Of a DNA stretch of 64,000 bases, positions 25,372-41,713 are shown one piece after another (the first letter of the stretch is position 1; the number at the start of each line of letters is the position of its first letter). The position numbers and the translations under genes were made by a program. This DNA is from Methanobacteriota archaeon (GTDB taxonomy: Archaea > Halobacteriota > Methanomicrobia > Methanomicrobiales > Methanoculleaceae). The notes below the pieces were generated by a model. It ran no database searches and had not been told where the DNA came from. It saw only the letters and a program-made list of their open reading frames with translations. Location: the NCBI GenBank assembly GCA_023436625.1, contig JAEZIP010000057.1:8313-72312 (forward strand). The letters run 5' to 3'.

Positions 25372-26499
25372 ATGAAGATCGCCTATGTCTACGATGCCGT
25401 CTACCCCTGGGTGAAGGGCGGGGTCGAGAAGCGCATCCGCGAGGTCTCGGTCCGGCTTGCCGACCGGGGACATGAGGTCCACGTCTACGGGATGCGTTCC
25501 TGGGACGGTCCGACGACGATCGAGCGCGACGGGGTGGTGCTCCACGGTGTATGTCCGGTGGAGCCCCTCTATTCGGACGGTAGGCGGACGGTCCCGCAGG
25601 CGCTCCGGTTCGGCTCTTCGGTGCTCCGGCCGCTTCTCTCCTCCGGCGCCGACGTCGTCGACTGCCAGAACTTCCCCTACTTCTCCTGCTTTGCGGCGAA
25701 GGCAGCGTCGGTGCGGCGGGGATTCCCGCTCGTCGTCACCTGGCACGAGGTCTGGGGCGACTACTGGTACGACTATCTCGGACGGCGGGGAGCGTTCGGG
25801 AAGGCCGTCGAGCGGCTGACCGCCGGGCTCACCCCCCATCACATCGCGGTCTCGCCCTCGACGGCCCGGGCCCTCGAGGGCCTCGCGGTGCGAGGACCGG
25901 TCCCGGTCGTCCCGAACGGGATCGATCTTGCGGAGATCGCGACCGTCGCCCCGGCGGCGGAGGGATCCGACGTCATCTTCACCGGCCGGCTGATCCGGGA
26001 GAAGAACGTCGACCTCCTCCTCCGGGCGCTCGTGCCGCTCCGGGAGGAGGTTCCCGATCTCGGGGCCCTGATCGTCGGCGACGGCCCGGAGCGGCCGGCG
26101 CTCGAAGCCCTCGCGCGCGACCTCGGGCTTGACGGGGCGGTGACCTTCACCGGCTTTCTCCCCGACCATGACTCGGTCATCGCCGCGATGAAGGCTTCAA
26201 GGGTCTTCGTCCTCCCCTCGACCCGCGAGGGTTTCGGGATCGCGGCGCTGGAGGCGATGGCCTGCGGGTTGCCGGTGGTGACGACGGACCATCCCGGGAA
26301 CGCGGCGGGGGATCTCGTCGTGCCGGGGGTGAACGGGTTCTGTTGTGACCTCTCGGCGGGGGAGATGGGGGAGAAGATCCTGAAGGCGATCGGTTCTCCG
26401 GGTATCGACGGCAGCATGTGTGTGACGCTGGCAGAGTCTTACGACTGGAACCGCATCGTTGAAGCGCTCGAACAGCGGTACTTGTCTATCGTTCGGTAA
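25372..26499 (+). CDS. glycosyltransferase family 4 (GT-B)
   Basis: MKIAYVYD...GGVE N-terminus. C-terminal EGFGIAALEAMACGLPVV (E-x7-E region). Confidence 0.88.
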   Translation: MKIAYVYDAVYPWVKGGVEKRIREVSVRLADRGHEVHVYGMRSWDGPTTIERDGVVLHGVCPVEPLYSDGRRTVPQALRFGSSVLRPLLSSGADVVDCQNFPYFSCFAAKAASVRRGFPLVVTWHEVWGDYWYDYLGRRGAFGKAVERLTAGLTPHHIAVSPSTARALEGLAVRGPVPVVPNGIDLAEIATVAPAAEGSDVIFTGRLIREKNVDLLLRALVPLREEVPDLGALIVGDGPERPALEALARDLGLDGAVTFTGFLPDHDSVIAAMKASRVFVLPSTREGFGIAALEAMACGLPVVTTDHPGNAAGDLVVPGVNGFCCDLSAGEMGEKILKAIGSPGIDGSMCVTLAESYDWNRIVEALEQRYLSIVR

Positions 26500-26613
26500 G
26501 CTTCCGGGAAAACCGTACGGGGACGTTGAGATGGTAACAATTGTTGTAGGCTCCCAAATATCTTGGAAGACTTCAGCAGGGTAGATCCCCGACGTTCGCG
26601 ACGGAGTGTCACT

Positions 26614-27753
26614 ATGAGAATACTTCATGCCACTAAAAAATACCTGAACGCGATCGGTGGGGACGCCCGGGTTGTCTCCCATCTGGAGCAGGAACAGCAG
26701 CGCAGGGGTCATGAGGTATTCATTCTGACAGCCAACTGCCCGGAGATTGTGCGGAAAGAGAATGTTTTCCGGTTCGGGTTCAACGACAGGGCAGCCAGTC
26801 TGGATATGATTACGTTCAGAAGAATCCTCTCGCTCCTGATGCTGTCCGTCACCGGTTTCTTCCTCCTGCACCGCCTGAAACCGGATATTATCCATACCCA
26901 TTCCCCGGAGATCGGATATATCGTCTCTCTCCAGGCAGCGATCTTTCGTATCCCGGTGGTGAATACGTGCCACGGCGTCACCTTCTCCTATGAACAGTTC
27001 TCACCGATGAAACGCCGTGTTGAAACATTCTTTTTGAAATACGGGAAGTTCAAGGAGATTGTGACCGTTGACAGAAGCAGCCTCCCGTTCTTTGCCGGGC
27101 GTGCTATCAAAGGCGTCAGATATATCCCTAACGGGGTCAGCATCGAAGATTTTGCGAGGAGAGAACCGAGGGACTCACAGACTTCAGGCATTCGCTGCCT
27201 CTTCGTAGGCAGACTGGAGGAGCAGAAGGGCCTGAAGCATCTCATCCAGGCGTCAAAGCAGCTTTCGCAGGATATTCCGGATTACAGCCTCACCATCGTC
27301 GGAGAAGGCTCCCGGCGCGACGAACTGACCCGGATGATCACGGAGGCGGGTTTAAGCAATCGGATCCGGATCCTCGACCGGGTTGGTCTGGAGGAGTTGA
27401 AGGGATGGTATCACTCGTGCGATGTCTTTATCCTGCCGTCCATCTGGGAGGGCATGCCGCTGACCCTTCTGGAAGCGTGGGCGGCAGGTCTTCCTGCAAT
27501 TGTGACCTCTGTTGGGGATATTCCTTACCTCTGTAACGACAGGGAGAATGCCCTGATCGTTCGCCCCGGTGATCCCGGGGGTCTCTCAGACGCGGTGCAT
27601 CTCCTCGCCCGGGATGCGCAACTGCGGGATAACCTGGGCAAATGCGGTGAAAGAACCGTGAAAGGCGGCTACTCCTGGTCGAGCGTGGCGGACAGGTACC
27701 TGGATCTATACGACTCCGCCCGAGATCACGCCTCTCCACCCTCCCGGGGGTGA
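26614..27753 (+). CDS. glycosyltransferase family 4 (GT-B)
   Basis: MRILHATKKY...GGD N-terminus. EGMPLTLLEAWAAGLPAI. Start at ATG 26614. Confidence 0.88.
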   Translation: MRILHATKKYLNAIGGDARVVSHLEQEQQRRGHEVFILTANCPEIVRKENVFRFGFNDRAASLDMITFRRILSLLMLSVTGFFLLHRLKPDIIHTHSPEIGYIVSLQAAIFRIPVVNTCHGVTFSYEQFSPMKRRVETFFLKYGKFKEIVTVDRSSLPFFAGRAIKGVRYIPNGVSIEDFARREPRDSQTSGIRCLFVGRLEEQKGLKHLIQASKQLSQDIPDYSLTIVGEGSRRDELTRMITEAGLSNRIRILDRVGLEELKGWYHSCDVFILPSIWEGMPLTLLEAWAAGLPAIVTSVGDIPYLCNDRENALIVRPGDPGGLSDAVHLLARDAQLRDNLGKCGERTVKGGYSWSSVADRYLDLYDSARDHASPPSRG

Positions 27754-28030
27754 GAAACCGCTGGGGGAACGGCAGATGCCTGAGCATCATCTGGCCTGAT
27801 AGACTGGTCCCGGGTTGACATTCTGTAGTGACCCTTCGACCCTTACGGTGCTGTTCGACTGCCATTTTGCAGCTGGGGTTTGGTCGGGGAGTGATTGAAT
27901 CTGCTGCCGGTTCTCCCTCTCCGCAATATCAGGAGGCCCTCGACCTTCTTCTCCAGGGGGCACTAACCCATAATGGAAACCGAATAGGAGTTTTCATGTC
28001 CGATGCAGACAGAATATGTGCAGCTGCAGC

Positions 28031-29107
28031 ATGAAGATAGCAATATTTCACGACTATTTCGGGGCCATCGGGGGCGGAGAAAAGGTTGTTATAGCCCTTG
28101 CACAGGCGTTAGATGCGGACATCATCACGACGGACGTCGATGCAGTGGCAAGGATTGATTCCGCAGTACAGGTGACCAGCCTCGGACCTACAATTAAAAC
28201 ACCACCTTTCAAACAACTCTCGGCAACGCTGAAATTTTCTTCATGTGATTATTCTGACGAGTATGATTTTTTCGTTTTCAGTGGTAACTGGGCCCATTAT
28301 GCGGCTAAAAAGCACCATCCCAATCTGTGGTACTGCCATACGCCCGTGAGGGCGTTTTATGATCTCTATGGTACGTTTCTACAGAGACAGAGCCTCATCC
28401 AGAGGCAATTTTACAGGATATGGGTGACTGCCCACCGCAAATTCGACCAGAACGCGGTAAAGGATCTGGATCGGATCGTCACAAATTCTCAAAACACGCA
28501 GAGGAGAATTCAGAAATACTACGGTCGAGATTCGACCATAACCTATCCCCCTGTCGATACTTCAAGATATTTCTGCAAAGAGTACGGGGACTTCTGGCTC
28601 TCGGTGAACCGCCTCTACCCGGAGAAACGGATTGAACTGCAGATCGAAGCCTTCCGGTCGATGCCGGACGAGCACCTGGTCATCGTCGGCGGATACGCCG
28701 CCGGAGACCACTCGGGCCGTTACGTGGCCCGGCTCATGGAAGACCTCCCGGAGAACGTCGAGGTCCGGGGGGAGGTCACTGAAGAGGAGCTGATCGACCT
28801 CTACGCCCGGTGCAGGGGGCATGTCTGCACGGCACTGGACGAGGACTTCGGCCTGACACCGGTGGAGGCGATGGCCGCCGGGAAGCCGGTGGTTGCGGTG
28901 AACGAGGGTGGGTTTTGCGAGACGATGACGGCGGATACGGGGATGCTTGTTAAAGCCGATCCATCAGACCTCGCAGCGGCGATCGACGTGATCTCCGGGG
29001 ATCCGGAGAGATACAGAGATGCATGCATCAAACGATCAAAGTTCTTTGACATATCGGTTTTCGAGGAGAGATTACGAGCTCTTGTCCAGCCAGTGCAGGA
29101 GTTGTAG
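28031..29107 (+). CDS. glycosyltransferase family 4 (GT-B)
   Basis: MKIAIFHDYFGAIGGGEKV N-terminus. EDFGLTPVEAMAAGKPVV. Start at ATG 28031. Confidence 0.85.
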   Translation: MKIAIFHDYFGAIGGGEKVVIALAQALDADIITTDVDAVARIDSAVQVTSLGPTIKTPPFKQLSATLKFSSCDYSDEYDFFVFSGNWAHYAAKKHHPNLWYCHTPVRAFYDLYGTFLQRQSLIQRQFYRIWVTAHRKFDQNAVKDLDRIVTNSQNTQRRIQKYYGRDSTITYPPVDTSRYFCKEYGDFWLSVNRLYPEKRIELQIEAFRSMPDEHLVIVGGYAAGDHSGRYVARLMEDLPENVEVRGEVTEEELIDLYARCRGHVCTALDEDFGLTPVEAMAAGKPVVAVNEGGFCETMTADTGMLVKADPSDLAAAIDVISGDPERYRDACIKRSKFFDISVFEERLRALVQPVQEL

Positions 29108-29434
29108 GACATCACCCGGTCCGATTGGATAGTTCTGCGGGGAGGCCATCTCAAAACCTCTTTGCCTGGAGAGAGCTCCTCTCAGAGCCTCCTGTGGGGT
29201 AATCTGAATCTCCAGATTGGAGGAGAAGTCAATATTTGGGGACACGTCGAAGAACCGGACCACGGCTCAAACTCGAACGGATCCCTGTATTGCAAACTAT
29301 TTTGGGGTGACCATGTGGTCACGGGAAACCCATCTTACACGGGGAAACCTGGCGGGGTGATTCGACTGTATAAATATATCCGGATTAATATCAATCCAGA
29401 AACATTATACGGGCTAAATAACCATTACTCTGTC

Positions 29435-29911
29435 ATGAAAACGACCATCGACGGGGTGGCTGTTAAAAACTTACGTCTCATTCCGGACGAGCGGGGATGG
29501 CTCATGGAGATCCTCCGGTGTGACGACGCTATTTTCGAGAAATTCGGGCAGGTCTACTGCACGACGGCCTACCCCGGGGTTGTGAAAGCCTGGCATTATC
29601 ATAAGAAACAGACCGACAACTTCACCTGCATCCACGGGATGATGAAGGTCGCGCTCTACGATGCACGTGAGAATTCGCCCACCCGGGGAAACCTCATGGA
29701 GTTCTTCGTCGGGGAGAAGAACTCGATCCTCATCAGCGTCCCGCCCGGCGTCTATCACGGGTTCAAGGGGATCGGCACCGAGACCGCGTTCTTCGTGAGC
29801 ATCCCGACCCTGCCGTACAACTACGACGATCCGGACGAGTTCCGGCTTCCGCCCGACACGGGCGAGATCCCCTACGACTGGGGCCTTGCGCCCGGGCTGA
29901 AACACGGGTGA
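29435..29911 (+). CDS. rmlC: dTDP-4-dehydrorhamnose 3,5-epimerase family (cupin)
   Basis: IPDERGWLMEI, KAWHYHKKQTD and PPGVYHGF cupin motifs. Start at ATG 29435. The upstream 91 codons of the ORF are low-complexity and were discarded. Confidence 0.8.
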   Translation: MKTTIDGVAVKNLRLIPDERGWLMEILRCDDAIFEKFGQVYCTTAYPGVVKAWHYHKKQTDNFTCIHGMMKVALYDARENSPTRGNLMEFFVGEKNSILISVPPGVYHGFKGIGTETAFFVSIPTLPYNYDDPDEFRLPPDTGEIPYDWGLAPGLKHG

Positions 29912-29915
29912 CTCT

Positions 29916-30878
29916 ATGCGGATTCTCGTAACCGGCGGGCTCGGGTTCATCGGGAGCAACTTTATTCGGCAGATGCTTGAGGAGCACCCCGACGACACCG
30001 TCGTAAACCTGGATAAGATCACCTACGCCGGAAACCCGGAAAACCTGAAGAATATCGCCGGGAATCCACGGTATACGTTTATCCGGGGCGATATCTGCGA
30101 CCCGGAGATCGTCGGCTCCGTCTTCCGGGAACACCCGGTCGATGCCGTCGTCCATTTCGCGGCGGAGAGTCATGTCGACCGGTCGATAGAGGACGCCTCC
30201 GTCTTTGTCAGAACGAACGTCCTCGGCGCCCACGTGCTGCTCGAAGGGGCGCTGAGCCACGGTGTTAAGCGGTTTATCCACGTCTCGACCGACGAGGTCT
30301 ACGGGAGCATCCGGTCAGGATCCTTCCGGGAGACGGACAACCTGAACCCCTCGAGCCCCTACTCGGCGAGCAAGGCAGCCTCCGACCTTCTTGCGCGGTC
30401 GTACTATATCACCCACGATCTCGGCGTCATCGTCACCCGCTGCACGAACAACTTCGGACCCTACCAGTACCCGGAGAAACTCATTCCGCTCTTTGTCACC
30501 AACCTCCTTGAGGGAAAGAAGGTCCCCGTTTACGGCACCGGTCAGAACGTCCGCGACTGGATCTATGTGGCCGATCACTGCCGGGCGGTCGATTTCATCC
30601 TCCGCCACGGGGAGCCGGGGGAGATCTACAACATCGGGGGCGGCAACGAGAAGAGCAACCTCGAGATCACCGAAGGGATCCTAAAGACCCTCGGAAAGGA
30701 CGAGTCGATGATCGAGTACGTTCCCGACCGGCCGGGGCACGACTGGCGGTACTCGCTCGACTCCTCGAAGCTCCGGGCGATGGGTTGGAAGCCCGGATTC
30801 GCTTTCGAAACCGCCTTACGGGCGACTATCCAATGGTATACTGAGAATGAGTGGTGGTGGCGGCGGTTAAAACGGTAA
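29916..30878 (+). CDS. rmlB: dTDP-glucose 4,6-dehydratase
   Basis: ILVTGGLGFIGSNF, STDEVYG, YSASKAASD and RCTNNFGPYQYPEKLIP are classic RmlB motifs. Confidence 0.93.
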   Translation: MRILVTGGLGFIGSNFIRQMLEEHPDDTVVNLDKITYAGNPENLKNIAGNPRYTFIRGDICDPEIVGSVFREHPVDAVVHFAAESHVDRSIEDASVFVRTNVLGAHVLLEGALSHGVKRFIHVSTDEVYGSIRSGSFRETDNLNPSSPYSASKAASDLLARSYYITHDLGVIVTRCTNNFGPYQYPEKLIPLFVTNLLEGKKVPVYGTGQNVRDWIYVADHCRAVDFILRHGEPGEIYNIGGGNEKSNLEITEGILKTLGKDESMIEYVPDRPGHDWRYSLDSSKLRAMGWKPGFAFETALRATIQWYTENEWWWRRLKR

Positions 30879-31663
30879 TCTTCGGTGCATACGGGATGCT
30901 CGGCCACGACCTCGCAGCAGTTTTTCCTGGAGCGGTCCTCCACGGTCGTGAACTGGATATCACCGACGGGAAGGCGGTTTCTGCGTGCATCCGCGGCCTC
31001 TCTCCCGATCTGGTCGTCAATGCTGCTGCCTATACCGACGTCGATGGGTGCGAGGATAACCGGGATCTGGCGTTCGCCGTCAACGGGGAGGCGCTCGCAT
31101 ACATCGCCTCCGCCTGCTCGGACGTGGGGGCCACGCTCGTCCACTACAGCACGGATTACGTCTTTGACGGCTCGAAGACGGAATATACCGAGTCCGACGT
31201 GCCGAACCCCATCAACGTCTACGGGGCCTCCAAATTCCTCGGCGAGCAGAATATCGCAAAGAACATGGACGACTACCGGATCATCCGCACGTCCTGGCTT
31301 TTTGGGCGACACGGGAGGAACTTCGTCGAGACCATGCTTCACCTCTCGGGGCAGATGGACCCGGTCCGGGTGGTGGACGACCAGGTCGGGAAGCCGACGT
31401 ACACGGTCGACCTTGCCCGGAAGACGCCGGAGATCGTCGGATGTCCTCCCGGGATCTACCACGTCACGAACGACGGCGTCTGCTCGTGGTACGAGTTTGC
31501 GCGTGCGATTATCAAGAACGTGGTGCCCTGCTCGAGCGCAGAGTTCCCCCGGAAGGCGAAACGTCCGGCATATTCGGTGCTGATGAACACAAAGACGGCC
31601 CCGCTCCGGCACTGGAGCGGTGCGCTTGCCGATTATTTGAACTTAAAAGGTGAATCTCATTGA
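30851..31663 (+). CDS. rmlD: dTDP-4-dehydrorhamnose reductase
   Basis: IFGAYGMLG Rossmann motif, AAYTDVDGCE, STDYVFDG and YGASKFLGE. GTG start overlaps the rmlB 3-prime end. Confidence 0.88.
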   Translation: MVVAAVKTVIFGAYGMLGHDLAAVFPGAVLHGRELDITDGKAVSACIRGLSPDLVVNAAAYTDVDGCEDNRDLAFAVNGEALAYIASACSDVGATLVHYSTDYVFDGSKTEYTESDVPNPINVYGASKFLGEQNIAKNMDDYRIIRTSWLFGRHGRNFVETMLHLSGQMDPVRVVDDQVGKPTYTVDLARKTPEIVGCPPGIYHVTNDGVCSWYEFARAIIKNVVPCSSAEFPRKAKRPAYSVLMNTKTAPLRHWSGALADYLNLKGESH

Positions 31664-32445
31664 AAGGCGTAATTCTTGCCGGGGGTACCGGATCCCGCCT
31701 GTATCCCCTGACGAAGGTGACGAACAAGCACCTGCTGCCCGTGTACGATAAACCGATGATCTGTTACCCTCTGGAGAAGTTGATCGGTGCCGGCGTCGAG
31801 GAGATCATGATCGTCTCCGGCCGGGGGCACGTGGGGCATTTCCTTGAACTGCTCGGCTCAGGCTCGGAGTTCGGCGTCAGCATCACCTACGAGATCCAGG
31901 AAAATACCGGGGGGATTGCCCAGGCGCTCGGTCTTGCCCGGAAGTGGGCCGGGACCGGCAACATCGCGGTCATCCTCGGCGACAACATCTTCGAGGACGA
32001 CTTCCGGGACGAGATCGACTCGTTCGATAGGGGAGCGAAGGTCTTCTTAAAGGAGGTCTCCGACCCGCAGCGGTTCGGGGTGGCCGAGGTCGACGGCAGC
32101 CGGATCCTCTCGATCGAGGAGAAGCCGCAGGCGCCCAGGTCGAACCTTGCCGTCACGGGCCTGTATCTCTATGACGCACGGGTCTTTGAGATCATCCAGA
32201 CGCTCAAGCCTTCCGGTAGGGGCGAGCTCGAGATCACCGACGTGAATAACGCCTACGTCCGGGATGGCGAGCTGAAGTACAGCATTCTCCCGGGCTTCTG
32301 GAGCGATGCCGGAACGTTCGACAGCCTGATGCGGGCAAGCGTGATGGTCCAACGGCACCGGAAGAGGCAGGCGGAGTCGGCCTGCCCGGCGGTAACGGGG
32401 CGAGGAGAGCAACCGGATGATCAGCGTCGTCGTCACGAACTATAA
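31660..32445 (+). CDS. rmlA: glucose-1-phosphate thymidylyltransferase (short form)
   Basis: KGVILAGGTGSRLYPLT, GIAQAL, GDNIF and EKP motifs. TTG start overlaps the rmlD stop. Confidence 0.88.
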   Translation: MKGVILAGGTGSRLYPLTKVTNKHLLPVYDKPMICYPLEKLIGAGVEEIMIVSGRGHVGHFLELLGSGSEFGVSITYEIQENTGGIAQALGLARKWAGTGNIAVILGDNIFEDDFRDEIDSFDRGAKVFLKEVSDPQRFGVAEVDGSRILSIEEKPQAPRSNLAVTGLYLYDARVFEIIQTLKPSGRGELEITDVNNAYVRDGELKYSILPGFWSDAGTFDSLMRASVMVQRHRKRQAESACPAVTGRGEQPDDQRRRHEL

Positions 32446-33373
32446 CGGCCGGAAGTACCTGGCGGACTGCCTTTCTTCTCTTGCAGCACAGACTTACCGG
32501 GATTTCGAGACGATCGTGGTCGATAACGCTTCAACCGACGGCAGCGTGGAGTTTGTCGAGGAGAACTACCTGGAGGTCAGGATCGTCCGGAACCGGGAGA
32601 ACCTGGGATTCGCCGGGGGAACGAACGCCGGTATCCGTGCCGCCCGGGGGGAGTACGTCCTCACCCTGAACAACGATACGCGGGCCGACCCCGGTTTTCT
32701 GGAGCACCTCAGGGACGCCATGGACGTCGACACCGCTACGGGGATGTGCGCTGCAAAGATGCTCTTTCCGAATGGTTCGATAAACTCAACCGGGATCTGC
32801 ATCTCGCGGAGCGGCGCTGCCTGGGACCGGGGAATGTATGAGCCGGATCACGGACAGTATGACTGTTCCGAAGAGGTCTTCGGCCCCTGCGCCGGCGCCG
32901 CACTCTATCGGCGGGAGATGCTCGAGGAGATCGGGCTCTTCGACGAGGACTTCTTCCTCTACATGGATGATGTCGATCTGGCTTTTCGGGCCCGCCTTGC
33001 GGGCTGGGCGTGCCGCTATGTCCCGGAGGCGAAGGTCTACCACCACCACGGCGGCACCGCGGGCGTCGGGACCGACCTCGCCGTCTACTACGGGAACCGG
33101 AACTGCGTCTGGTACGTTGTAAAGAACTTCCCTTCGCGACTGCTCGTCACCTCGATCCCCTGGATTCTGGTGAGGAACCTCATTGTCGTGCCCTACTACG
33201 CGACGAAGGGGCGGGGGCGTGCAGTCGTCCGGTCCAAGGTCGATGCCGTGTGCGGTATTCCCCGGATGCTTCGCAAGCGCTCGAAGATCAGGCGGAAGGT
33301 GCCGGAGAGTGAGATCAGGCGATTCATACACACCTGGTGCAGTATCGGGAGACCTTCACATGTGGCTTGTTGA
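32417..33373 (+). CDS. glycosyltransferase family 2 (rhamnosyltransferase-like)
   Basis: ISVVVTNYNGRKYL...VVDNASTDGS, LNNDT and FFLYMDDVDLAFR motifs. Confidence 0.88.
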   Translation: MISVVVTNYNGRKYLADCLSSLAAQTYRDFETIVVDNASTDGSVEFVEENYLEVRIVRNRENLGFAGGTNAGIRAARGEYVLTLNNDTRADPGFLEHLRDAMDVDTATGMCAAKMLFPNGSINSTGICISRSGAAWDRGMYEPDHGQYDCSEEVFGPCAGAALYRREMLEEIGLFDEDFFLYMDDVDLAFRARLAGWACRYVPEAKVYHHHGGTAGVGTDLAVYYGNRNCVWYVVKNFPSRLLVTSIPWILVRNLIVVPYYATKGRGRAVVRSKVDAVCGIPRMLRKRSKIRRKVPESEIRRFIHTWCSIGRPSHVAC

Positions 33374-34121
33374 TTACAGAGATCTCATCTGGAACCTTAC
33401 GATCAGCGACCTGAAGGTCAGGTACCAGAGTTCGGTGCTCGGATTTGCCTGGTCGCTCTTGAACCCGCTCCTGATGATGCTGGTCCTCTACGCTGTCTTT
33501 ATGAACATCTTTCGGTTCGAGCAGGAGAACTTTGCGCTCTACCTCCTCATCGGGATCATTGTCTGGCGGTTCCTTGCCAACGGGACCATGACGGCGATGG
33601 GCTCGATCGTCGGCAGACCGGGCCTCGTGACCAAACTCTACATCCCCCGCCAGATCCTGGTGATGAGCTCCGTACTCTCGAGTTTCATCAGTTCCATCCT
33701 CGAGTTCGCGGTGCTGATCCCGCTGCTCTTTATCCTGGGTGCGAAGGTGACGCCGAACATCCTCTTCTTCCCGGTCGTGCACGGGATCTACTTCCTGATC
33801 GTCTACGGCGTATCCCTGGTCCTCGCCTCGCTCTTTGTCTACTTCCGGGACTTAAACCAGGTCTGGGACGTGGTTCTCCAGGCGGGGTTCTTCTTATCGC
33901 CGATCGTCTACCCCGTCAGCGTCATCCCGGCGGCGTTCCTCGGCTACTACATGCTCAACCCGATGACCGCACTCATTGAGACCTACCGGGAGTTCCTGCT
34001 CTACGGGGTGACGCCTTCCCCGGCAACCCTCCTCGCTCTCCTCATGGTTGGGACCGTGCTGGTCGCCGCGGGGATCCTGGTCTTCAGTCGGCTCGAGCGC
34101 CGGTTTGCGGAGGAGATCTGA
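33360..34121 (+). CDS. wzm: ABC-2 type polysaccharide export permease (Wzm/TagG-like)
   Basis: N-terminal LTISDLKVRYQSSVLGFAWSLLNP signature and six TM segments. ATG at 33360. Immediately followed by the ATPase gene. Confidence 0.85.
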   Translation: MWLVDYRDLIWNLTISDLKVRYQSSVLGFAWSLLNPLLMMLVLYAVFMNIFRFEQENFALYLLIGIIVWRFLANGTMTAMGSIVGRPGLVTKLYIPRQILVMSSVLSSFISSILEFAVLIPLLFILGAKVTPNILFFPVVHGIYFLIVYGVSLVLASLFVYFRDLNQVWDVVLQAGFFLSPIVYPVSVIPAAFLGYYMLNPMTALIETYREFLLYGVTPSPATLLALLMVGTVLVAAGILVFSRLERRFAEEI

Positions 34122-34874
34122 ATGAACAGCGACGAAGCGATCGTGGTCGAGCACCTCAGTAAGGAGTTCCGGATCCCCCACGACCGCAAGGTCACCGTGT
34201 ACGAGCATATCGTCGGGCTCCTCAAGGGTAGAAAGTACTCCTACGACCGGTTCTCGGCTCTGGACGACGTCTCCTTCACGGTCCGACGCGGAGAGACCTT
34301 CGGGGTCATCGGGCCGAACGGAAGCGGGAAGAGCACGCTTTTAAAGATCCTTGCCGGGGTGCTCTACCCCGACTCCGGGAATGTCCGGGTGAACGGCAAG
34401 ATTGCTCCCTTCCTCGAACTCGGGGTCGGGTTCCAGCCGGACCTCACGGCCAGGGAGAACATCTACCTCTACGGCTCGATCATGGGCCTGACCCGGAAGG
34501 AGATCGGGAAACGTTACGACGAGATCCTCGACTTCTCCGAGCTGCGGCGTTTCGAGAACATGAAGCTCAAGAACTTCTCGTCGGGGATGGCGGTCCGGCT
34601 TGCGTTTGCGACGGCGATCCAGACGGACCCCGATATCCTGCTGGTGGACGAGGTGCTTGCCGTCGGCGACGAGGCTTTCCAGCGCAAGTGCAACGCGAAG
34701 ATCGAGGAGATCCGACGCGAGGGGAAGACGATCATCGTGGTCTCGCATGCCCTCGGGACGGTGCAGGAGCTGTGCGAGCGGTGTATGCTGCTGAAGGGCG
34801 GCAGGGTTATCTCGTCGGGGGAGACCGGCAGGGTGGTCGAGGAGTATCTGCGGGTTTCGGCGGCGGGGTCGTAG
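34122..34874 (+). CDS. wzt: polysaccharide export ABC transporter ATP-binding protein (Wzt/TagH-like), NBD only
   Basis: Walker A GPNGSGKST, signature FSSGMAVRLAF, Walker B ILLVDE. At 250 aa there is no room for a C-terminal carbohydrate-binding domain. Confidence 0.9.
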   Translation: MNSDEAIVVEHLSKEFRIPHDRKVTVYEHIVGLLKGRKYSYDRFSALDDVSFTVRRGETFGVIGPNGSGKSTLLKILAGVLYPDSGNVRVNGKIAPFLELGVGFQPDLTARENIYLYGSIMGLTRKEIGKRYDEILDFSELRRFENMKLKNFSSGMAVRLAFATAIQTDPDILLVDEVLAVGDEAFQRKCNAKIEEIRREGKTIIVVSHALGTVQELCERCMLLKGGRVISSGETGRVVEEYLRVSAAGS

Positions 34875-34919
34875 GCGTGATGGTTTTTTGGTGTAGGTAT
34901 TTACAGAGAAGGTAGGCAA

Positions 34920-37900
34920 ATGAGTCCGATTTACGAAGATCATCGTTCAACGAGGTATGAACCCCCGGTCATCGACCTGGAGAACAAAAACAATAGCCAG
35001 GTCCTCTTGATCGAACTAATAGGGGCGGGGAAAAACATCCTTGAGGTCGGCACGTCCACCGGCTACGTCAGCCGAATCCTCAAAGAACGGGGGAATACCG
35101 TCACCGGCATCGAGATCGACCCGGGAGCAGGCGAGATTGCCGGACAGCACTGCGACTCGATGTTCATCGGGGATATCGAGAAACTGGACCTTGATGCCTA
35201 CCTTGCTCCTTCCTCCTTCGACGTGATCATATTCGGGGATGTTCTGGAGCACTTGGTCTCCCCGGAGGATGTACTCAGGAAGGTGAAGAAGTACCTCCGG
35301 CCGGACGGATTCCTGGCCATTTCTCTACCGAACGTCTGCCATGGGGATGTAATCTTAAACCTATTCATGGGTGACTTCAAGTATACCTCGATGGGGCTTT
35401 TAGATGCCACCCATCTGCGTTTCTTCGGGCTCAGGAATATCATCGATCTCTTTAGCCGTTGTGGATATTCAATAACCGATATTCGTACGACGGTGCTGCC
35501 TGTCGGGGGCACCGAGCAGAGAGTCGATCCTGGACTTGTTCCGGAGGATCTCGCCAACTTCGTGAAGTCTCTTCCAAATTCGAGTGTTTATCAGTATGTC
35601 TTTACAGCGAGTCCTTCTCCGGGCCCAGGGGCGGTGGAGGCGGCTCCTGCACCTGATCTCGAGGGTCTGTTTCGCGGGGCCATTGAGGGGAGTATTCAGG
35701 CTGAGACCAAACCGTTGTTAGAGGAACTTAGTGCATACGAAGTACGCATAGCCTCATTCGATGAGCAGATCAAGCAGTTGATAGGGAAATCCGAGTCACT
35801 GCAGAAGGCTATCGCAGAGCGTGATGCGCAGGTTGCTTCGCTCAATGAGCAGATTACTCTGTCAGATGAGATACTTCGGTCTCTGAAAAAGGTTCTTGCT
35901 GATCGCGATGCACAGATTGCTTCGCTCGATGAGCAGACTCAGCAGCAGGCAGTCCAGTTAGTGCACTTATCCAATGAGCTTGCCAGTATGAAGCAAAGCG
36001 TTGTGTGGCAGTTGTTGATGAAATTTCATAGTGGATTTGTTGAGAGGATTCTTCCACAAAATACCCGCAGAAGGAAGTTATACACTCTTGGGTTAGTGGG
36101 ATTAAGGGTCCTCATACACGAAGGGCCAGGAAGTCTCTGGATGCATGGGAAAAGGAGGTTGGGGAATAAATTTCGATTAAGGTTGTTAAATCTCAAAGAA
36201 CCAGTATTAAGGATCTCTTTAGAGGCGTATGATGGGAATGTCCCGCTACCACTAGACAATCCGTTAATGGGGCGCTTTATTTCACCAACAAATGAGTTAC
36301 ATGCCATTGAAGTCCTGACCGAGACATATGAAAGGCGTAATGCAGACCTGCGGTTATCTATCAGGGAAGGTTCGCCTGAGGGGCGGGTCGTCCGCGAGGC
36401 GCTGCTCAAAGGCAGCAGGATTATAAACAATGGATACAGTTGGTGGGGGTTTAAACCCATTCCCGATAGTAAGGAGAAAGTGTACTATTTCCAGATTGAA
36501 TCTACAGGGTCTCCATCAGCTGCGGTCTGGTATAATTCGACTCCTCTCAATGAGAAACTGCAACTTTTCAGAGATGGAAACGAGATCAATGGTCAAATAG
36601 GGTTTCAGTGTTTCACAAAGGAAGCAATCCGGGATCCATACAGACTCTGGATCCTGCAAAACGATCCTTCGGAGGCCCAGCTTGAGCAGATGCGGAAAGA
36701 GTGTGTAACCTTTTCTTACCGGCCGAAGATCAGTATCGTAACGCCGGTATGGAATACGGATGAGAGATGGTTACGGCGTGCTATTGAGTCGGTCCTTGAG
36801 CAGACATACGACAACTGGGAACTCTGTATTGCTGACGGAGGTTCCACAAGGGAATCTGTAGAGAGGGTACTTAAAGAGTACGCCGAAAAAGACTCACGAA
36901 TTAAGGTGAAATCTCTGGATGAGAACAAGGGGATTTCTGGGAACTCCAACGAAGCTCTTTCGCTAGCAGCGGGGGATTTCATCGGGCTTCTTGACCATGA
37001 CGATGAACTGGCTCCCTTCGCACTGTGCGAGGTTGTAAAACTTCTGAATAAAAAGAGACATGTGAGTTTTATCTATTCGGATGAGGATAAAATCGATGAA
37101 AAGAGGAGGCGGAATAATCCATTCTTTAAGCCGGATTGGTCCCCGGACACATTCTTTTCGCACAACTATATCTGTCACTTCTCAGTTATCAAACGAGAAC
37201 TCGTTCAGAGGGTTGGAGGCTTTCGGGAAGGATATGATGGGTCCCAGGATTACGACCTCTTCTTGCGGGTCACCGAAACACTCGATGAAAGGGAAATTGC
37301 GCATATCCCAAAGATCCTCTATCATTGGAGAACAATTCAGGGTTCTGCTGCAGATAACGTAGAGGCTAAACCTTATGCAATTGTAGCCGCGAAAAAAGCT
37401 CTGGCCAATGCACTTTATCGGCGTGGCATAAAGGCTTCTGTGTTGGATGGACCATACCTCAGTTCATATAGGGTTCGGTATGAGATTACAGGCAACCCCA
37501 AGGTTTCAATAATCATCCCTACAAAAGACAAGGTGGGCGTACTGCAGACCTGTGTCAACTCTATTCTCGAGATGACTGATTATGAGAATTATGAGGTTGT
37601 CATTGTTGATAACCAGAGCCGCGAACCGGAAACCCACGATTACTATCAGCGGATCAAGAATAATCCGCACGTAAAGGTTCTTGAATATGATAGCCCCTTT
37701 AATTTCTCTGCCATCAATAATTTCGCAGTAGCGCACGCTGATGGGGAGTATCTCGTTCTTCTAAATAACGATACGGAAATTGTCGCTGAAGAGTGGCTGA
37801 CTGCGATGCTCGAACACGCACAGCGAGAGGAGGTGGGTGCGGTCGGGGCAAAACTCCTGTATTATAATAATACCATTCAGCATGCGGGCGTTGTTCTCGG

Positions 37901-38339
37901 AATAACGGGTAGTCCCGGCGAAAAAGGTGTTGCTGGTCACTCTCATAAGCATCTTTCAGATCGTGCGCTTGGGTATTTCTTACGACCCCATATTATTGGA
38001 AATGTGAGCGCGGTTACTGCAGCGTGCATGATGGTAAGGAGGGATGTCTATGAGCAAGTTGGAGGACTTGAGGAAGATCTGGTTGTTGCCTTCAATGATG
38101 TTGACTTTTGTCTAAAAATTCGTGATAGAGGGTACCTTATTGTTTATACGCCCTATGCCAAACTTTACCACTATGAGTCGTTGAGCAGAGGATACGAAGA
38201 TAATCCCGAGAAACAGGCACGGTTTTTGAAGGAAGTTCGGTATGTCCGAGAAAAATGGGGGGGCGTCATTGACACTGGAGATCCTTATTATAATCCTAAT
38301 TTGACTTTGGAAAGAGAAGATTTTTCTGCGAATATTTAA
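34920..38339 (+). CDS. multidomain protein: class I SAM methyltransferase, coiled coil, unknown middle domain, two GT2 glycosyltransferase domains
   Basis: aa 30-230 are the methyltransferase (ILEVGTSTG, FGDVLEHL). aa about 262-350 are heptad-rich with three 28-aa repeats. aa about 600-850 are GT2 domain 1 (ISIVTPVWN, DHDDEL). aa about 870-1130 are GT2 domain 2 (VSIIIPTKD, LNNDTE). Confidence 0.85.
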   Translation: MSPIYEDHRSTRYEPPVIDLENKNNSQVLLIELIGAGKNILEVGTSTGYVSRILKERGNTVTGIEIDPGAGEIAGQHCDSMFIGDIEKLDLDAYLAPSSFDVIIFGDVLEHLVSPEDVLRKVKKYLRPDGFLAISLPNVCHGDVILNLFMGDFKYTSMGLLDATHLRFFGLRNIIDLFSRCGYSITDIRTTVLPVGGTEQRVDPGLVPEDLANFVKSLPNSSVYQYVFTASPSPGPGAVEAAPAPDLEGLFRGAIEGSIQAETKPLLEELSAYEVRIASFDEQIKQLIGKSESLQKAIAERDAQVASLNEQITLSDEILRSLKKVLADRDAQIASLDEQTQQQAVQLVHLSNELASMKQSVVWQLLMKFHSGFVERILPQNTRRRKLYTLGLVGLRVLIHEGPGSLWMHGKRRLGNKFRLRLLNLKEPVLRISLEAYDGNVPLPLDNPLMGRFISPTNELHAIEVLTETYERRNADLRLSIREGSPEGRVVREALLKGSRIINNGYSWWGFKPIPDSKEKVYYFQIESTGSPSAAVWYNSTPLNEKLQLFRDGNEINGQIGFQCFTKEAIRDPYRLWILQNDPSEAQLEQMRKECVTFSYRPKISIVTPVWNTDERWLRRAIESVLEQTYDNWELCIADGGSTRESVERVLKEYAEKDSRIKVKSLDENKGISGNSNEALSLAAGDFIGLLDHDDELAPFALCEVVKLLNKKRHVSFIYSDEDKIDEKRRRNNPFFKPDWSPDTFFSHNYICHFSVIKRELVQRVGGFREGYDGSQDYDLFLRVTETLDEREIAHIPKILYHWRTIQGSAADNVEAKPYAIVAAKKALANALYRRGIKASVLDGPYLSSYRVRYEITGNPKVSIIIPTKDKVGVLQTCVNSILEMTDYENYEVVIVDNQSREPETHDYYQRIKNNPHVKVLEYDSPFNFSAINNFAVAHADGEYLVLLNNDTEIVAEEWLTAMLEHAQREEVGAVGAKLLYYNNTIQHAGVVLGITGSPGEKGVAGHSHKHLSDRALGYFLRPHIIGNVSAVTAACMMVRRDVYEQVGGLEEDLVVAFNDVDFCLKIRDRGYLIVYTPYAKLYHYESLSRGYEDNPEKQARFLKEVRYVREKWGGVIDTGDPYYNPNLTLEREDFSANI

Positions 38340-38364
38340 GTTTGATCTCATCTCCAACTATAGT

Positions 38365-39279
38365 GTGATCTTTATACAGCGGCCAGATTTTCGGCATCGG
38401 CATATATGTTCTTATATCCTAGTTGGTGAAGGTCTGGAAATTGGCGCATTGCATCAGCCATTTACGGTTCCAGCCACCTGTAAGGTAAGTTATTTGGATA
38501 TCATGCAGAAAGATGATCTTGTAACGTTATTCCCCGAGATCAATGGCTCAGACATTATCAAACCAGATTACATCGGTAACATCGCGCATAATTCAGTAGT
38601 TGAACTGACAAAGAGAAAATTCAATTTTATCATAGCGAATCATGTGCTCGAACACGTTCCGAATCCGATAAAAGCCGTTATGAACATATGGGCTGGCTTG
38701 GAAGATAACGGATATTTGGTTCTTTCAATTCCCGATAAGAATTATACTTTTGATAAAGATCGCCTCCTGACTCCATATGAACATTTACTAGCGGAATACT
38801 ACTTAGATGTGCATGAGGTTAGCGATGAGCATTATATTGAAGCTTTGCAGCATATCCACCCTCACGTTTTCGATAGTAAGGACGCATTAATTAATGCGTT
38901 GTACGCCTTCAGATTACGATCTGAGCACGCACATGTTTGGGATTCACATAGTTTCAGAGGACACTTAAGCCGAATCATTCAAGAAAATCGATTAAATGCA
39001 CTTATTCTCGTTGAATCTCCGGGAGAGTTGAATAAACTTGAATATTTCGCAGTGATCAAGAAGACAGTATCAAAAGACGATATTGATGGGGGGATGAGAA
39101 TATTATCCGCATTATATGATGATAGAAAAGATTTGAGGAAGGCTTTCCCTGATTTTAGCATGGGTAATTCAAGTTCCCTTATCAAATGGGCTTTGAATGC
39201 CGAACGGTTTGGCGATTCTGATGCATACCTGCTCAAAGGATTTAAAGAATCGTTTCTGAGTTATCTGGATGTATTATAA
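38365..39279 (+). CDS. class I SAM-dependent methyltransferase
   Basis: GLEIGALHQP and FNFIIANHVLEHVPNP motifs. GTG start. Low GC. Confidence 0.7.
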   Translation: MIFIQRPDFRHRHICSYILVGEGLEIGALHQPFTVPATCKVSYLDIMQKDDLVTLFPEINGSDIIKPDYIGNIAHNSVVELTKRKFNFIIANHVLEHVPNPIKAVMNIWAGLEDNGYLVLSIPDKNYTFDKDRLLTPYEHLLAEYYLDVHEVSDEHYIEALQHIHPHVFDSKDALINALYAFRLRSEHAHVWDSHSFRGHLSRIIQENRLNALILVESPGELNKLEYFAVIKKTVSKDDIDGGMRILSALYDDRKDLRKAFPDFSMGNSSSLIKWALNAERFGDSDAYLLKGFKESFLSYLDVL

Positions 39280-39301
39280 GTGTGTGTTCGTTCCAAAGGA
39301 G

Positions 39302-39900
39302 TCACTCCTGTATCATTAAGTTTGTCCCGAATTTCTGCGCCGGGAGAGAGCATCTCTCCTGGTGCCTCTCTCTGGAACTCCCCCGGAGTTCCTCTGGCCC
39401 GCGGAAGCGGAAAACACCCCTTTTTGGGGTTAATTTTTGCGTCTGCCTCTTGAGCTGGCCGGTTGCCATTTTGTCGGCTTCCTGCAGGCCCCGGCGGGGT
39501 CGGAACTCGTTTATCGCATAGAGGAAGAGACAGAGCACCATGATCATCGCCAGCGTCTGGATCTGGGAGGGTTTCTTGAGATAGATCCCCGCCACTCGGA
39601 ACAAGGGATCCGTGAGGAACCGGAATCCCCGTTCACTATACCCCACTCTAATATAGTTCGCCGGAAGTTCATCAGGTGAGAGTTGCAGGTCGCTTGTCAC
39701 CAGGACAAATCACCCCGGTTTCTGCCGTATTTCGGCAACGGTCTGGGGGTTGTACTCAATTATGCGAAGAGGTATGTGTGTGCTTCCGCAGGCATCACCT
39801 GATTGAGGAACTAGGTGATGGGATTCTTCATACCGCTCTCTGGTTCGGAAAGAAAAGCTATGATAAACACCTGGGAATATCCGTGGCTCTGATTCTCCTT
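39302..39900 (-). mobile_element. degraded IS1634/IS4-superfamily transposase remnant (C-terminal part)
   Basis: FVLVTSDLQLSPDEL...ERGFRFLTDPLF...YLKKPSQIQTLAMIMVLCLFLY resembles the conserved C-terminal block of IS1634-type transposases. An in-frame TGA lies at 39710-39712. The N-terminal two thirds are missing. Confidence 0.6.
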
Positions 39901-41712: not shown

Positions 41713-41713
41713 G

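What the first reader, a model, noticed from the sequence alone, without database searches (positions are those of the whole stretch)
34920..38339. One 1139-aa polypeptide combining a methyltransferase, a coiled coil and two GT2 domains: a candidate terminator/ruler/polymerase in an archaeon
The domain order is N-terminal class I SAM methyltransferase, a roughly 90-residue heptad-rich segment, a middle domain with no recognisable motif (about aa 350-600), then two complete GT2 catalytic domains (DHDDEL and NNDTE). This mirrors the logic of bacterial ABC-transporter-dependent O-antigen systems. There, a chain-terminating enzyme is held at a fixed distance from the polymerising glycosyltransferases by a coiled-coil molecular ruler (WbdD/WbdA of E. 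coli O9a; WbbB of Raoultella/Klebsiella O12). Here all parts are fused, sit directly downstream of wzm-wzt and rmlABCD, and lie in an aglB locus. To my knowledge a ruler-type polymerase has not been characterised in Archaea. The unknown middle domain is a further open question.
Basis: partly seen in the sequence, partly recalled or inferred. Interest (0 to 1): 0.8.

Follow-up and report, generated by a model that had tools for sequence, protein, structure and literature searches.

The report
Archaeal methyl-capping, coiled-coil glycan polymerase
This gene from a Methanoculleus-type methanogen encodes a known bacterial kind of enzyme that builds a surface sugar polymer, probably caps it with a methyl group, and holds the capping and building parts apart on a coiled-coil rod; related strains differ in rod length by whole 28-residue units and carry different sugar-building halves.

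Summary
ORF 34920-38339 (+) encodes 1139 aa. In order it has a class I SAM methyltransferase, an unbroken heptad coil of about 95-110 residues, a conserved basic helical module, a confident all-beta domain, and two GT-A/GT2 domains (DHDDE at 692, NNDTE at 949). It lies directly after rmlCBDA, a GT2, wzm and wzt.

A 2024 paper had already noted the Methanoculleus marisnigri JR1 homologue. The window is 88% identical in DNA to that JR1 locus up to codon 402.

New here:
- The coil is built from an 84-nt/28-aa repeat. Close relatives carry 0, 1, 2, 3 or 6 copies.
- Across the family, spacer lengths favour one class modulo 7.
- A cassette swap starts exactly after the post-coil module. It brings in low-GC DNA for the beta domain, both GT2s and an extra methyltransferase, and ends at an IS1634 remnant.
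- The "unknown" domain is a jelly-roll accessory module found on other glycan enzymes.
- Wzt (250 aa) has no carbohydrate-binding module, unlike all characterised terminated systems.

Ruler function is plausible but untested. I rate this a new variant of a known kind.

The parts
22786..25242 (-). aglB (archaeal oligosaccharyltransferase), divergent from the cluster
   Evidence: Pfam AglB_core-like 3.9e-34, STT3, AglB_L1. It is not adjacent in the syntenic M. marisnigri locus.
25372..29107 (+). Three GT4 glycosyltransferase genes (25372-26499, 26563-27753, 28016-29107), candidate adaptor or primer enzymes
   Evidence: Pfam Glycos_transf_1 / Glyco_transf_4. The first is 87% nt-identical to the JR1 gene.
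29162..32445 (+). dTDP-L-rhamnose genes rmlC (last ~158 codons of ORF 29162-29911), rmlB 29916-30878, rmlD 30851-31663, rmlA 31660-32445
   Evidence: Pfam dTDP_sugar_isom, GDP_Man_Dehyd/Epimerase, RmlD_sub_bind 1e-86, NTP_transferase 6.7e-58
32417..33373 (+). Single-domain GT2 (318 aa)
   Evidence: Pfam Glycos_transf_2 2.3e-32. Conserved in JR1.
33360..34121 (+). wzm, ABC-2 permease (253 aa as called)
   Evidence: Pfam ABC2_membrane 4.4e-17; gene call
34122..34874 (+). wzt, ABC ATPase of 250 aa with no C-terminal carbohydrate-binding module
   Evidence: Pfam ABC_tran only. C-terminal extension is 0 aa here, against at least 100 aa in 41 Wzt of related loci.
34920..35615 (+). Fusion protein aa 1-232: class I SAM methyltransferase (putative chain-capping terminator)
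   Evidence: Pfam Methyltransf_23 4.8e-17; PDB 3cc8 4.5e-35 and TMt 0.77; invariant E42, G44, G48, D67, D85, D107, E110, H111
35658..35999 (+). Fusion aa 247-360: coiled-coil spacer, containing three 84-nt (28-aa) repeats starting at 35738, 35822 and 35906
   Evidence: Unbroken heptad register; AF2 helix 247-334; direct repeats at 84-nt spacing; copy-number variation in relatives
36000..36164 (+). Fusion aa 361-415: conserved basic helical post-coil module (putative membrane or complex anchor). The recombination breakpoint lies at 36127/36128 (codon 403).
   Evidence: S360 invariant; W363, P379, R384, R385, G402 nearly invariant; net charge +7 over aa 383-415; end of nt homology with JR1
36192..36629 (+). 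Fusion aa 425-570: all-beta jelly-roll accessory domain (putative glycan-binding module; no Pfam family)
   Evidence: AF2 pLDDT 87.5; Foldseek hits to phage baseplate and capsid jelly-rolls and to CBM6; present in only about 14 of 52 aligned homologues; fused to other glycan enzymes elsewhere
36717..37424 (+). Fusion aa 600-835: first GT-A/GT2 module (DHDDE at 692)
   Evidence: Pfam Glycos_transf_2; aligns to the K4CP DSD motif; D694 invariant
37497..38279 (+). Fusion aa 860-1120: second GT-A/GT2 module (NNDTE at 949, NDVDF at 1059)
   Evidence: Pfam Glyco_tranf_2_3 5e-21; D951 and D1060 invariant; the tandem GT-A region aligns over ~570 columns to heparosan synthase 2 and chondroitin polymerase, E 2e-21
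36128..39836 (+). Swapped low-GC cassette (beta domain, GT2a, GT2b, extra methyltransferase gene, IS remnant). It replaces the JR1 segment that encodes different GT2 modules and a ribofuranosyltransferase.
   Evidence: blastn collinearity of 87.7% from 29391 to 36127, lost until 39837; GC falls from 0.54-0.62 to 0.38-0.49; the JR1 608-aa gene matches PDB 7shg ribofuranosyl transferase at 1.6e-17
38365..39279 (+). Extra stand-alone methyltransferase inside the cassette (called as 276 aa, from 38449)
   Evidence: Pfam Methyltransf_23 1.2e-11; gene call
39302..39700 (-). IS1634-family transposase fragment at the right edge of the cassette
   Evidence: NCBIfam NF033559 4.9e-13, covering profile positions 365-450 of 483 only

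Best explanation
The gene encodes a WsaE / K. pneumoniae O7-ORF6-type trifunctional enzyme of an ABC-transporter-dependent surface-glycan pathway in a Methanoculleus-like methanogen.

Proposed mechanism. Only the architecture is shown; the steps are inferred.
1. The basic post-coil module holds the protein at the membrane.
2. The two GT-A modules, helped by an adjacent beta-sandwich that probably binds the glycan, alternately extend a rhamnose-containing polymer on a lipid carrier. The donor is made by the adjacent rmlABCD genes.
3. The coil, probably two-stranded and about 13-14 nm long, holds the SAM methyltransferase away from the membrane. Only chains long enough to reach it are O-methylated at the non-reducing end, which stops growth.
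4. Wzm/Wzt then export the polymer.

The protein is a mosaic. Its first 402 residues form the methyltransferase-coil-anchor head shared by Methanoculleus strains. Everything after that is a horizontally exchanged, serotype-like polymerase cassette.
For: - Architecture and catalytic motifs.
- The tandem GT-A region resembles dual-site polymerases (8vh8, 2z87; E 2e-21 over ~570 columns).
- Context: rmlCBDA, GT2, wzm, wzt immediately upstream. Wzm/Wzt lie nearby in about 50 of 80 related loci from archaea and bacteria.
- Coil: unbroken heptads with a = I/L/V and d = L, and an 88-residue AF2 helix.
- Spacer length: between flanking domains of constant length the spacer ranges from 38 to 256 aa. 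Lengths are strongly biased modulo 7 (49 unique lengths, chi-square p = 1.4e-4; moduli 5, 6, 8, 9 and 11 not significant).
- Among the 12 relatives with at least 84% methyltransferase identity, 10 have spacers of exactly 124 + 28k residues (68, 96, 124, 152, 236). These correspond to 0, 1, 2, 3 or 6 copies of one 28-aa unit. The unit is encoded by 84-nt direct repeats.
- The same head is joined to GT2+GT2, GT2+GT4, GT2+WsaF-type and RgpF cassettes.
- Synteny with M. marisnigri JR1. PMC11231755 says JR1 makes a polysaccharide with the K. pneumoniae O7 backbone and carries ORF6-O7 and ORF7-O7 homologues. The JR1 608-aa neighbour matches ribofuranosyl transferase 7shg.
- Experimental precedents: WsaE (PMC2943079, PMC3898925); ORF6-O7, WbdD and WbbB rulers (PMC11231755).
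Against: - No activity, oligomeric state or glycan was measured here.
- Wzt has no carbohydrate-binding module. PMC11231755 states that all terminated examples have one, so the cap-recognition checkpoint is absent or works differently.
- A modulo-7 bias shows that coiled-coil register is conserved. It does not show that coil length sets chain length.
- A second methyltransferase in the cassette could be the real modifier.
- Sugar specificity of the two GT2 modules cannot be read from sequence.
- No initiating phosphoglycosyltransferase was found in the ORFs scanned.
Confidence: 0.65

Rival explanations
1. Same enzyme family, but no ruler. The methyltransferase decorates the glycan (internal residues, or a cap with no length sensing). 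The coil only oligomerises or scaffolds the complex. Chain length is set by coupling to a transporter without a binding module, as in K. pneumoniae O2a.
For: Wzt is 250 aa with no binding module, here and in JR1. In the O2a model a transporter without such a module couples export to extension, and stoichiometry sets length (PMC11231755). [quoted passage not shown]
Against: Quantised 28-aa copy-number variation occurs with conserved caps on both ends of the coil, including among proteins with the same cassette type: P0052/P0053 at 152 vs 96 and P0037/P0038 at 152 vs 124. This is easier to explain if length matters. The methyltransferase always sits at the end of the coil far from the GT modules, as in proven rulers (PMC11231755).
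Confidence: 0.22
2. Not a polymerase. The two GT2 domains and the methyltransferase each act once to finish a short, defined oligosaccharide that AglB transfers to proteins.
For: aglB is adjacent. Characterised archaeal N-glycans are mostly short, and the M. marisnigri S-layer N-glycan is a trisaccharide (PMC11407970).
Against: aglB adjacency is absent in the syntenic JR1 locus. Wzm/Wzt and a long coil are hallmarks of polymer systems. JR1, with the orthologous head, makes a repeat polysaccharide (PMC11231755). The tandem GT-A fold matches bifunctional polymerases.
Confidence: 0.08
3. The mosaic gene is an assembly chimera or a decaying pseudogene.
For: GC drops sharply inside the gene and an IS fragment lies nearby.
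Against: The reading frame is intact and all catalytic motifs are conserved. The identical protein was read on 3 contigs. An 86%-identical full-length homologue has the same architecture (P0002). The same junction from head to beta domain to GT2a is present in the complete genome of the isolate M. palmolei DSM 4273 (L002). The breakpoint falls exactly at a domain boundary.
Confidence: 0.03

Closest known systems
K. pneumoniae O7 ORF6 (PMC11231755, 2024)
   Same: It has an N-terminal methyltransferase, a central coiled coil and two C-terminal GT2 modules (rhamnosyltransferases). It sits in a cluster with rml genes and wzm-wzt. That paper reports its homologue in M. marisnigri JR1, and the JR1 locus is syntenic and 88% nt-identical to the window up to codon 402.
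   Different: ORF6-O7 has an added kinase and an Ig-like module on the terminator side of the coil, and it caps with methyl-phosphate. Its Wzt-type transporter belongs to the class with a binding module. The window protein has no kinase, carries its beta-sandwich on the polymerase side, has a short Wzt, and lacks the partner ribofuranosyltransferase. Direct sequence comparison was not possible because the sequence is not held.
WsaE of Geobacillus stearothermophilus NRS 2004/3a (PMC2943079, PMC3898925)
   Same: It is a trifunctional single polypeptide with an N-terminal 2-O-methyltransferase that caps the chain and two rhamnosyltransferase domains. The gene order is wzm-wzt-wsaE with rmlACBD, and the product is an S-layer glycoprotein glycan. 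Family members here even fuse a WsaF-type domain (P0040).
   Different: It is bacterial, and its glycan is O-linked through WsaB. Its Wzt is predicted to bind the methylated end. No ruler role has been shown. Sequence homology to the window protein was not tested.
WbbB (K. pneumoniae O12 / Raoultella) and WbdD/WbdA (E. coli O9a)
   Same: The logic is the same: terminator, coiled-coil ruler, polymerase. WbbB follows the same order in a single polypeptide.
   Different: WbbB terminates with a GT99 Kdo transferase. WbdD is a methyltransferase-kinase whose polymerase is a separate protein. Both need a binding module on Wzt. Neither appears among PDB sequence matches at E <= 0.01.
Dual GT-A polymerases K4CP (2z86/2z87) and PmHS2 (8vh7/8vh8)
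   Same: The tandem GT-A region aligns over about 570 columns at E ~2e-21. GT2a aligns to the K4CP domain that carries the DSD motif.
   Different: They are capsule polymerases with other sugars and have no terminator or coil. Sequence identity is 13-16%.

Membership tests
Coiled-coil terminator-polymerase of ABC-transporter-dependent glycan assembly (WbbB / ORF6-O7 / WsaE type) | Terminator catalytic domain at the end of the coil far from the GT modules | tested here: met
   Class I SAM methyltransferase at aa 26-232 with invariant SAM-motif residues. Its activity and target were not tested.
Coiled-coil terminator-polymerase of ABC-transporter-dependent glycan assembly (WbbB / ORF6-O7 / WsaE type) | Extended coiled coil between terminator and polymerase | tested here: met
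   Unbroken heptad register at aa ~253-360; AF2 helix 247-334; 28-aa repeats. Oligomeric state was not tested.
Coiled-coil terminator-polymerase of ABC-transporter-dependent glycan assembly (WbbB / ORF6-O7 / WsaE type) | Polymerising GT modules on the same polypeptide or recruited to it | tested here: met
   Two GT-A/GT2 modules with conserved acidic motifs. The tandem fold resembles K4CP and PmHS2. Processivity was not tested.
Coiled-coil terminator-polymerase of ABC-transporter-dependent glycan assembly (WbbB / ORF6-O7 / WsaE type) | Adjacent wzm-wzt ABC transporter | tested here: met
   wzm 33360-34121 and wzt 34122-34874 lie directly upstream.
Coiled-coil terminator-polymerase of ABC-transporter-dependent glycan assembly (WbbB / ORF6-O7 / WsaE type) | Wzt carries a C-terminal carbohydrate-binding module that recognises the cap | tested here: not met
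   Wzt is 250 aa, ABC_tran only. No Wzt-C-like ORF occurs anywhere in the window. 41 Wzt of related loci do have extensions of at least 100 aa.
Coiled-coil terminator-polymerase of ABC-transporter-dependent glycan assembly (WbbB / ORF6-O7 / WsaE type) | Coil length sets glycan chain length | not testable with these tools
   Only indirect support: modulo-7 bias and 0, 1, 2, 3 or 6 copies of the 28-aa unit in close relatives.
K. pneumoniae ORF6-O7 homologues | Sequence homology to ORF6-O7 | tested here: inconclusive
   No direct comparison was possible. Indirect evidence: the JR1 protein P0019 lies next to a 7shg-like ribofuranosyltransferase, fitting the ORF6/ORF7 homologue pair reported in PMC11231755. 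The window head is 89% identical to P0019, but the GT2 modules are only ~40% identical.
WsaE | Methyltransferase plus two dTDP-Rha-dependent rhamnosyltransferase domains, with sequence homology | not tested
   Architecture and gene order match (PMC2943079).
WbdD | Methyltransferase plus kinase bifunctional terminator, with a separate polymerase | tested here: not met
   There is no kinase domain. The GT modules are fused. No WbdD hit appears in the PDB sequence search at E <= 0.01.
CBM6 / galactose-binding-like beta-sandwich (middle domain) | Jelly-roll fold with a sugar-binding site | tested here: inconclusive
   Foldseek gives 1gmm at E 1.6e-3 with TM 0.44-0.52; the better hits are phage baseplate and capsid jelly-rolls at TMq 0.63-0.64. 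No Pfam hit. Binding residues were not examined.

The most novel reading that the evidence does not exclude
Methanoculleus runs a terminator-ruler system without the transporter's cap-reading module. Chain length is tuned in nature by copy number of a 28-aa coil unit, about 4 nm per unit. A previously undescribed beta-sandwich module, which travels with the polymerase cassette, tethers the growing chain. The finished polymer may be handed to AglB as a polymeric N-glycan.
Probability: 0.15. Interest if true: 0.75.

Novelty: new variant of a known kind. Interest (0 to 1): 0.45.

Why it matters
The terminator-ruler-polymerase logic for controlling glycan chain length is well established in bacteria, and almost nothing is known about how archaea control the length of surface polysaccharides.

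This locus offers a natural test. Closely related Methanoculleus strains keep the same methyltransferase head and transporter but differ in coil copy number (0, 1, 2, 3 or 6 units of 28 aa) and in the polymerase cassette. Comparing their glycans could test the ruler idea without genetics.

It also shows serotype-like cassette exchange at a domain boundary inside a single archaeal gene. And it gives a case where a putative terminator coexists with a transporter that has no binding module, a combination the bacterial paradigm does not cover.

Tried and rejected
I repeated it with 15 sequences.
- The search for homologous proteins with the middle domain alone returned nothing, not even the parent protein. 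An HMMER scan of cluster representatives found 98 clusters instead.
- Idea tested: the middle beta domain is a Wzt binding module that moved to the polymerase. No sequence or profile similarity to the C-terminal extensions of 41 related Wzt was found (phmmer and hmmsearch found nothing; hhalign probability 0.4%). Presence of the domain does not track cleanly with short Wzt: 3 of 4 loci with the domain have short Wzt, against 4-5 of 8 without it. I rejected the idea as stated. The domain travels with the GT cassette.
- Tandem Repeats Finder found no array in the coil. The 84-nt repeats are too diverged for it (60-80% identity) and appear only with the repeat finder and at protein level (offset 28).
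- Mann et al. 2019 (Glycobiology) and Kelly et al. 2022 (Glycobiology) are not held. I therefore could not check whether the JR1 polysaccharide carries a terminal methyl group.
- No transmembrane segment is present (maximum Kyte-Doolittle 19-residue mean 1.37).
- A search for an initiating phosphoglycosyltransferase among the ORFs scanned found none.


Full report
**1. Observation**

ORF 34920-38339 (+) encodes 1139 aa. An identical protein is in public collections on a metagenome scaffold with the same neighbours.

Pfam finds a class I methyltransferase (aa 34-186) and two GT2 domains (605-765 and about 860-1086). The best PDB sequence matches are a Bacillus cereus methyltransferase (3cc8, 4.5e-35) and the second GT-A domain of chondroitin polymerase K4CP. 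The query DHDDE aligns with the K4CP DSD metal-binding motif.

The SAM-motif residues E42, G44, G48, D67, D85 and D107 are invariant across 15 diverse homologues. So are the acidic residues of both GT2 modules (D694, D951, D1060).

Upstream on the same strand lie three GT4 genes, rmlC, rmlB, rmlD, rmlA, a 318-aa GT2, wzm and wzt. aglB is divergent at 22786-25242. A further methyltransferase follows the fusion gene.

**2. Anatomy from structure prediction**

AlphaFold2, using a 53-sequence alignment, gave mean pLDDT 84.6. The model shows:

| Residues | Feature |
|---|---|
| 26-232 | Methyltransferase fold |
| 233-246 | Pro/Ala-rich linker |
| 247-334 | One continuous 88-residue helix |
| 343-415 | Four shorter helices |
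| 430-566 | All-beta domain, pLDDT above 90 |
| 604-835, 862-1119 | Two GT-A domains |

Foldseek aligns the tandem GT-A region over about 570 columns to the dual-site polymerases heparosan synthase 2 and chondroitin polymerase (E ~2e-21). It aligns the methyltransferase to 3cc8 (TMt 0.77). There is no transmembrane segment.

**3. The coil**

- A simple a/d scoring finds a single heptad register from about aa 253 to 360. Windows scoring above 0.6 occur only at 276-334, and the best score elsewhere in the protein is 0.44.
- Core positions are a = L/I/V-rich and d = L-rich, with recurrent Arg at d in an ERDAQ motif. By the classical rules for core packing this pattern suggests a parallel dimer. 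That is inference only.
- Self-comparison peaks at offset 28. The DNA carries three diverged copies at 84-nt spacing, starting at 35738, 35822 and 35906.

**4. The family, and the coil as a variable-length spacer**

The full-length search returned 125 proteins at E <= 1e-10. A scan of one genome per species found 324 relatives. The best 80 include 14 archaeal loci (Methanoculleus, Methanoregulaceae, Methanotrichaceae, Methanosarcina, Methanoperedens, Archaeoglobi) and many cyanobacterial, actinobacterial and Chloroflexi loci. Wzm/Wzt homologues lie within 10 kb in about 50 of the 80 loci, and rml genes are common.

Flanking modules have constant length across the family: methyltransferase ~222-226 aa, post-coil ~42-43, GT2a ~275, GT2b ~285. 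The spacer between the methyltransferase and the conserved S360-x-x-W363 motif ranges from 38 to 256 aa.

Spacer lengths are strongly biased modulo 7. For 78 proteins the counts are 37 in class 4 and 18 in class 5. For the 49 unique lengths, chi-square gives p = 1.4e-4. Moduli 5, 6, 8, 9 and 11 are not significant.

Among the 12 relatives with at least 84% methyltransferase identity, 10 have spacers of exactly 124 + 28k residues (68, 96, 124, 152, 236). Their sequences show 0, 1, 2, 3 or 6 copies of one 28-aa unit, flanked by conserved N- and C-terminal coil caps. Proteins with the same C-terminal cassette type differ in copy number: P0052/P0053 (both RgpF type by the precomputed domains) at 152 vs 96, and P0037/P0038 (both GT2+GT4) at 152 vs 124.

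It shows that length is evolvable in register-preserving quanta. It does not prove that length sets chain length.

**5. The gene is a mosaic**

GC falls from about 0.60 (wzt) to about 0.54 (methyltransferase and coil), and then to 0.42-0.49 from about 35900 onward. It reaches 0.38-0.40 in the next gene.

| Compared with | Collinear stretch (window coordinates) | Identity | Where similarity ends |
|---|---|---|---|
| M. marisnigri JR1 (CP000562) | 29391-36127 | 87.7% | Lost from 36128 to 39836; resumes at 39837 |
| M. palmolei DSM 4273 | Continues through the beta domain and GT2a to 37141 | ~75% over 35893-37141 | The second GT2 differs |

The left breakpoint is codon 403, exactly at the end of the conserved post-coil module (G402). 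The right edge carries an IS1634 transposase fragment.

Per-domain identities show the same pattern:
- P0019, P0027, P0049 and P0058 share 84-89% of the methyltransferase but only 17-41% of the GT2 modules.
- P0004, P0005 and P0009 share 71-92% of the beta domain and GT2 modules but only about 25% of the methyltransferase.

Elsewhere the same head is joined to GT2+GT4, GT2+GT2+GT4, GT2+WsaF-type and RgpF cassettes. This is serotype-like module exchange.

In JR1 the replaced segment encodes different GT2 modules and a 608-aa protein that matches ribofuranosyl transferase 7shg (1.6e-17). The window lacks that gene. Its polymer should therefore differ from the JR1 polymer and probably lacks ribofuranose.

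**6. The 'unknown middle domain'**

It has two parts.

*Post-coil module (aa ~357-415).* Outside the catalytic motifs this is one of the most conserved non-catalytic stretches of the family (S360 invariant; W363, P379, R384, R385 and G402 nearly so). It is basic (net +7 over aa 383-415). By analogy with the membrane-proximal region of WbdD (PMC11231755) I infer a membrane or complex anchor. This is not shown.

*Beta domain (aa ~425-570).*
- It is present in only about 14 of 52 aligned homologues. The others have a linker of about 22 residues.
- Modelled alone it gives pLDDT 87.5.
- Foldseek's best hits are jelly-roll domains of a phage baseplate protein (9euj_G, TMq 0.64, E 7.5e-6) and a PBCV-1 capsid protein. 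CBM6 modules follow (1gmm, E 1.6e-3, TM 0.44-0.52).
- An exhaustive HMMER scan finds it in 98 representative clusters. Seven of the ten checked had Pfam hits, all to glycan-related or membrane proteins: tandem GT2 without the head, methyltransferases, a membrane acyltransferase (Acyl_transf_3), a GT2, and a DUF6541 membrane protein. Three had none.

I read it as an accessory, probably glycan-binding, module that belongs to the polymerase cassette. It has no Pfam family.

**7. A missing piece**

Wzt is 250 aa with only the ABC ATPase domain, as in JR1. In related loci 41 Wzt proteins have C-terminal extensions of at least 100 aa. PMC11231755 states that in all terminated examples a binding module on Wzt reads the cap. 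So the export checkpoint is absent or different here. The beta domain shows no detectable similarity to those Wzt extensions.

**8. Comparison with the literature**

- WsaE of G. stearothermophilus is a trifunctional enzyme. It has an N-terminal 2-O-methyltransferase that caps the S-layer rhamnan and two rhamnosyltransferase domains, is encoded as wzm-wzt-wsaE with rml genes, and its in-vitro methylation did not depend on chain length (PMC2943079, PMC3898925, PMC9415975).
- K. pneumoniae O7 ORF6 has a methyltransferase (plus kinase and an Ig-like module), a coiled coil and two GT2 rhamnosyltransferase modules. The same paper summarises the ruler evidence for WbdD and WbbB. It also notes that M. 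marisnigri JR1 has an unknown surface polysaccharide with the O7 backbone and homologues of ORF6-O7 and ORF7-O7 (PMC11231755, citing Kelly et al. 2022).
- I found no paper in the held library that characterises such an enzyme in an archaeon.

**9. Verdict**

The protein is a member of a known, widespread kind. The novelty claim needs trimming, because the archaeal homologue had been noticed and closer bacterial precedents exist.

What is new and useful:
- the quantised coil polymorphism;
- the cassette swap at a domain boundary;
- the identification of the accessory beta module;
- the coexistence of a terminator-like head with a transporter that has no binding module.

My confidence that this is a polymerase-terminator of this family is about 0.65 for the whole mechanism. 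It is higher for family and architecture and about 0.5 for the ruler step. Rivals, in order: a scaffold-only coil with decorative methylation and export-coupled length control (0.22), a non-processive oligosaccharide builder for AglB (0.08), and an artefact (0.03).

Noticed in passing
window 36000-44000 and 52000-62000: Two low-GC stretches (0.41-0.49) lie inside an otherwise 0.60-0.68 GC region. Both are full of glycosyltransferase and methyltransferase genes, suggesting horizontally exchanged glycan cassettes.
   Followed up: partly
window 39302-39700 (-): A 132-aa ORF matches only positions 365-450 of the 483-position IS1634 transposase model. It is a transposase remnant at the right edge of the swapped cassette.
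   Followed up: yes
window 47258-53459: Two Wzx-type flippase genes (47258-48751 -, 52188-53459 -) and two PMT_2 (GT-C-like) genes (48738-50255 -, 50441-52153 +) are present. This looks like a second, flippase-dependent glycan pathway beside the ABC-transporter one.
   Followed up: no
window 41714-45193 (-): Three ORFs (183, 497 and 459 aa) lie in the low-GC stretch. They have no Pfam or NCBIfam family apart from a weak methyltransferase hit in the last. Function unknown.
   Followed up: no
window 54123-63972 (-): A further glycan cluster: three GT4, a sugar-transfer-associated ATP-grasp protein (56713-57861), an unassigned 468-aa ORF, a methyltransferase, a GT2, an epimerase/dehydratase and a nucleotidyltransferase.
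   Followed up: no
window 9883-13944 (-): A 1353-aa sensor histidine kinase with at least five PAS domains and a GAF domain.
   Followed up: no
window 4303-8833 (+): An ADP-ribosylglycohydrolase followed by arginine-biosynthesis genes (a semialdehyde dehydrogenase resembling argC, argJ, and an amino-acid kinase resembling argB). Three ORFs at 1004-4303 have no family, and the first 2 kb has lower GC (0.52).
   Followed up: no
L054 6891-8738 (+): In a Methanotrichaceae locus, a second protein of about 616 aa carries the same beta-sandwich module at its C-terminus (aa 487-604, E 9.7e-20), next to the fusion gene.
   Followed up: no
L003 and L005: Two short contigs (3.5-3.7 kb) binned as Bacteroidales and Spirochaetota encode proteins 51-58% identical to the window protein, with the archaeal-type post-coil motif. 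L003 also has the beta domain. They may be misbinned archaeal contigs.
   Followed up: no
L004, L042, L056, L046, L041: Other archaeal relatives (Methanoregulaceae, Methanoperedens, Methanosarcina) do have long Wzt proteins with 160-350 aa C-terminal extensions. Archaea therefore have both transporter types, with and without a putative binding module.
   Followed up: partly
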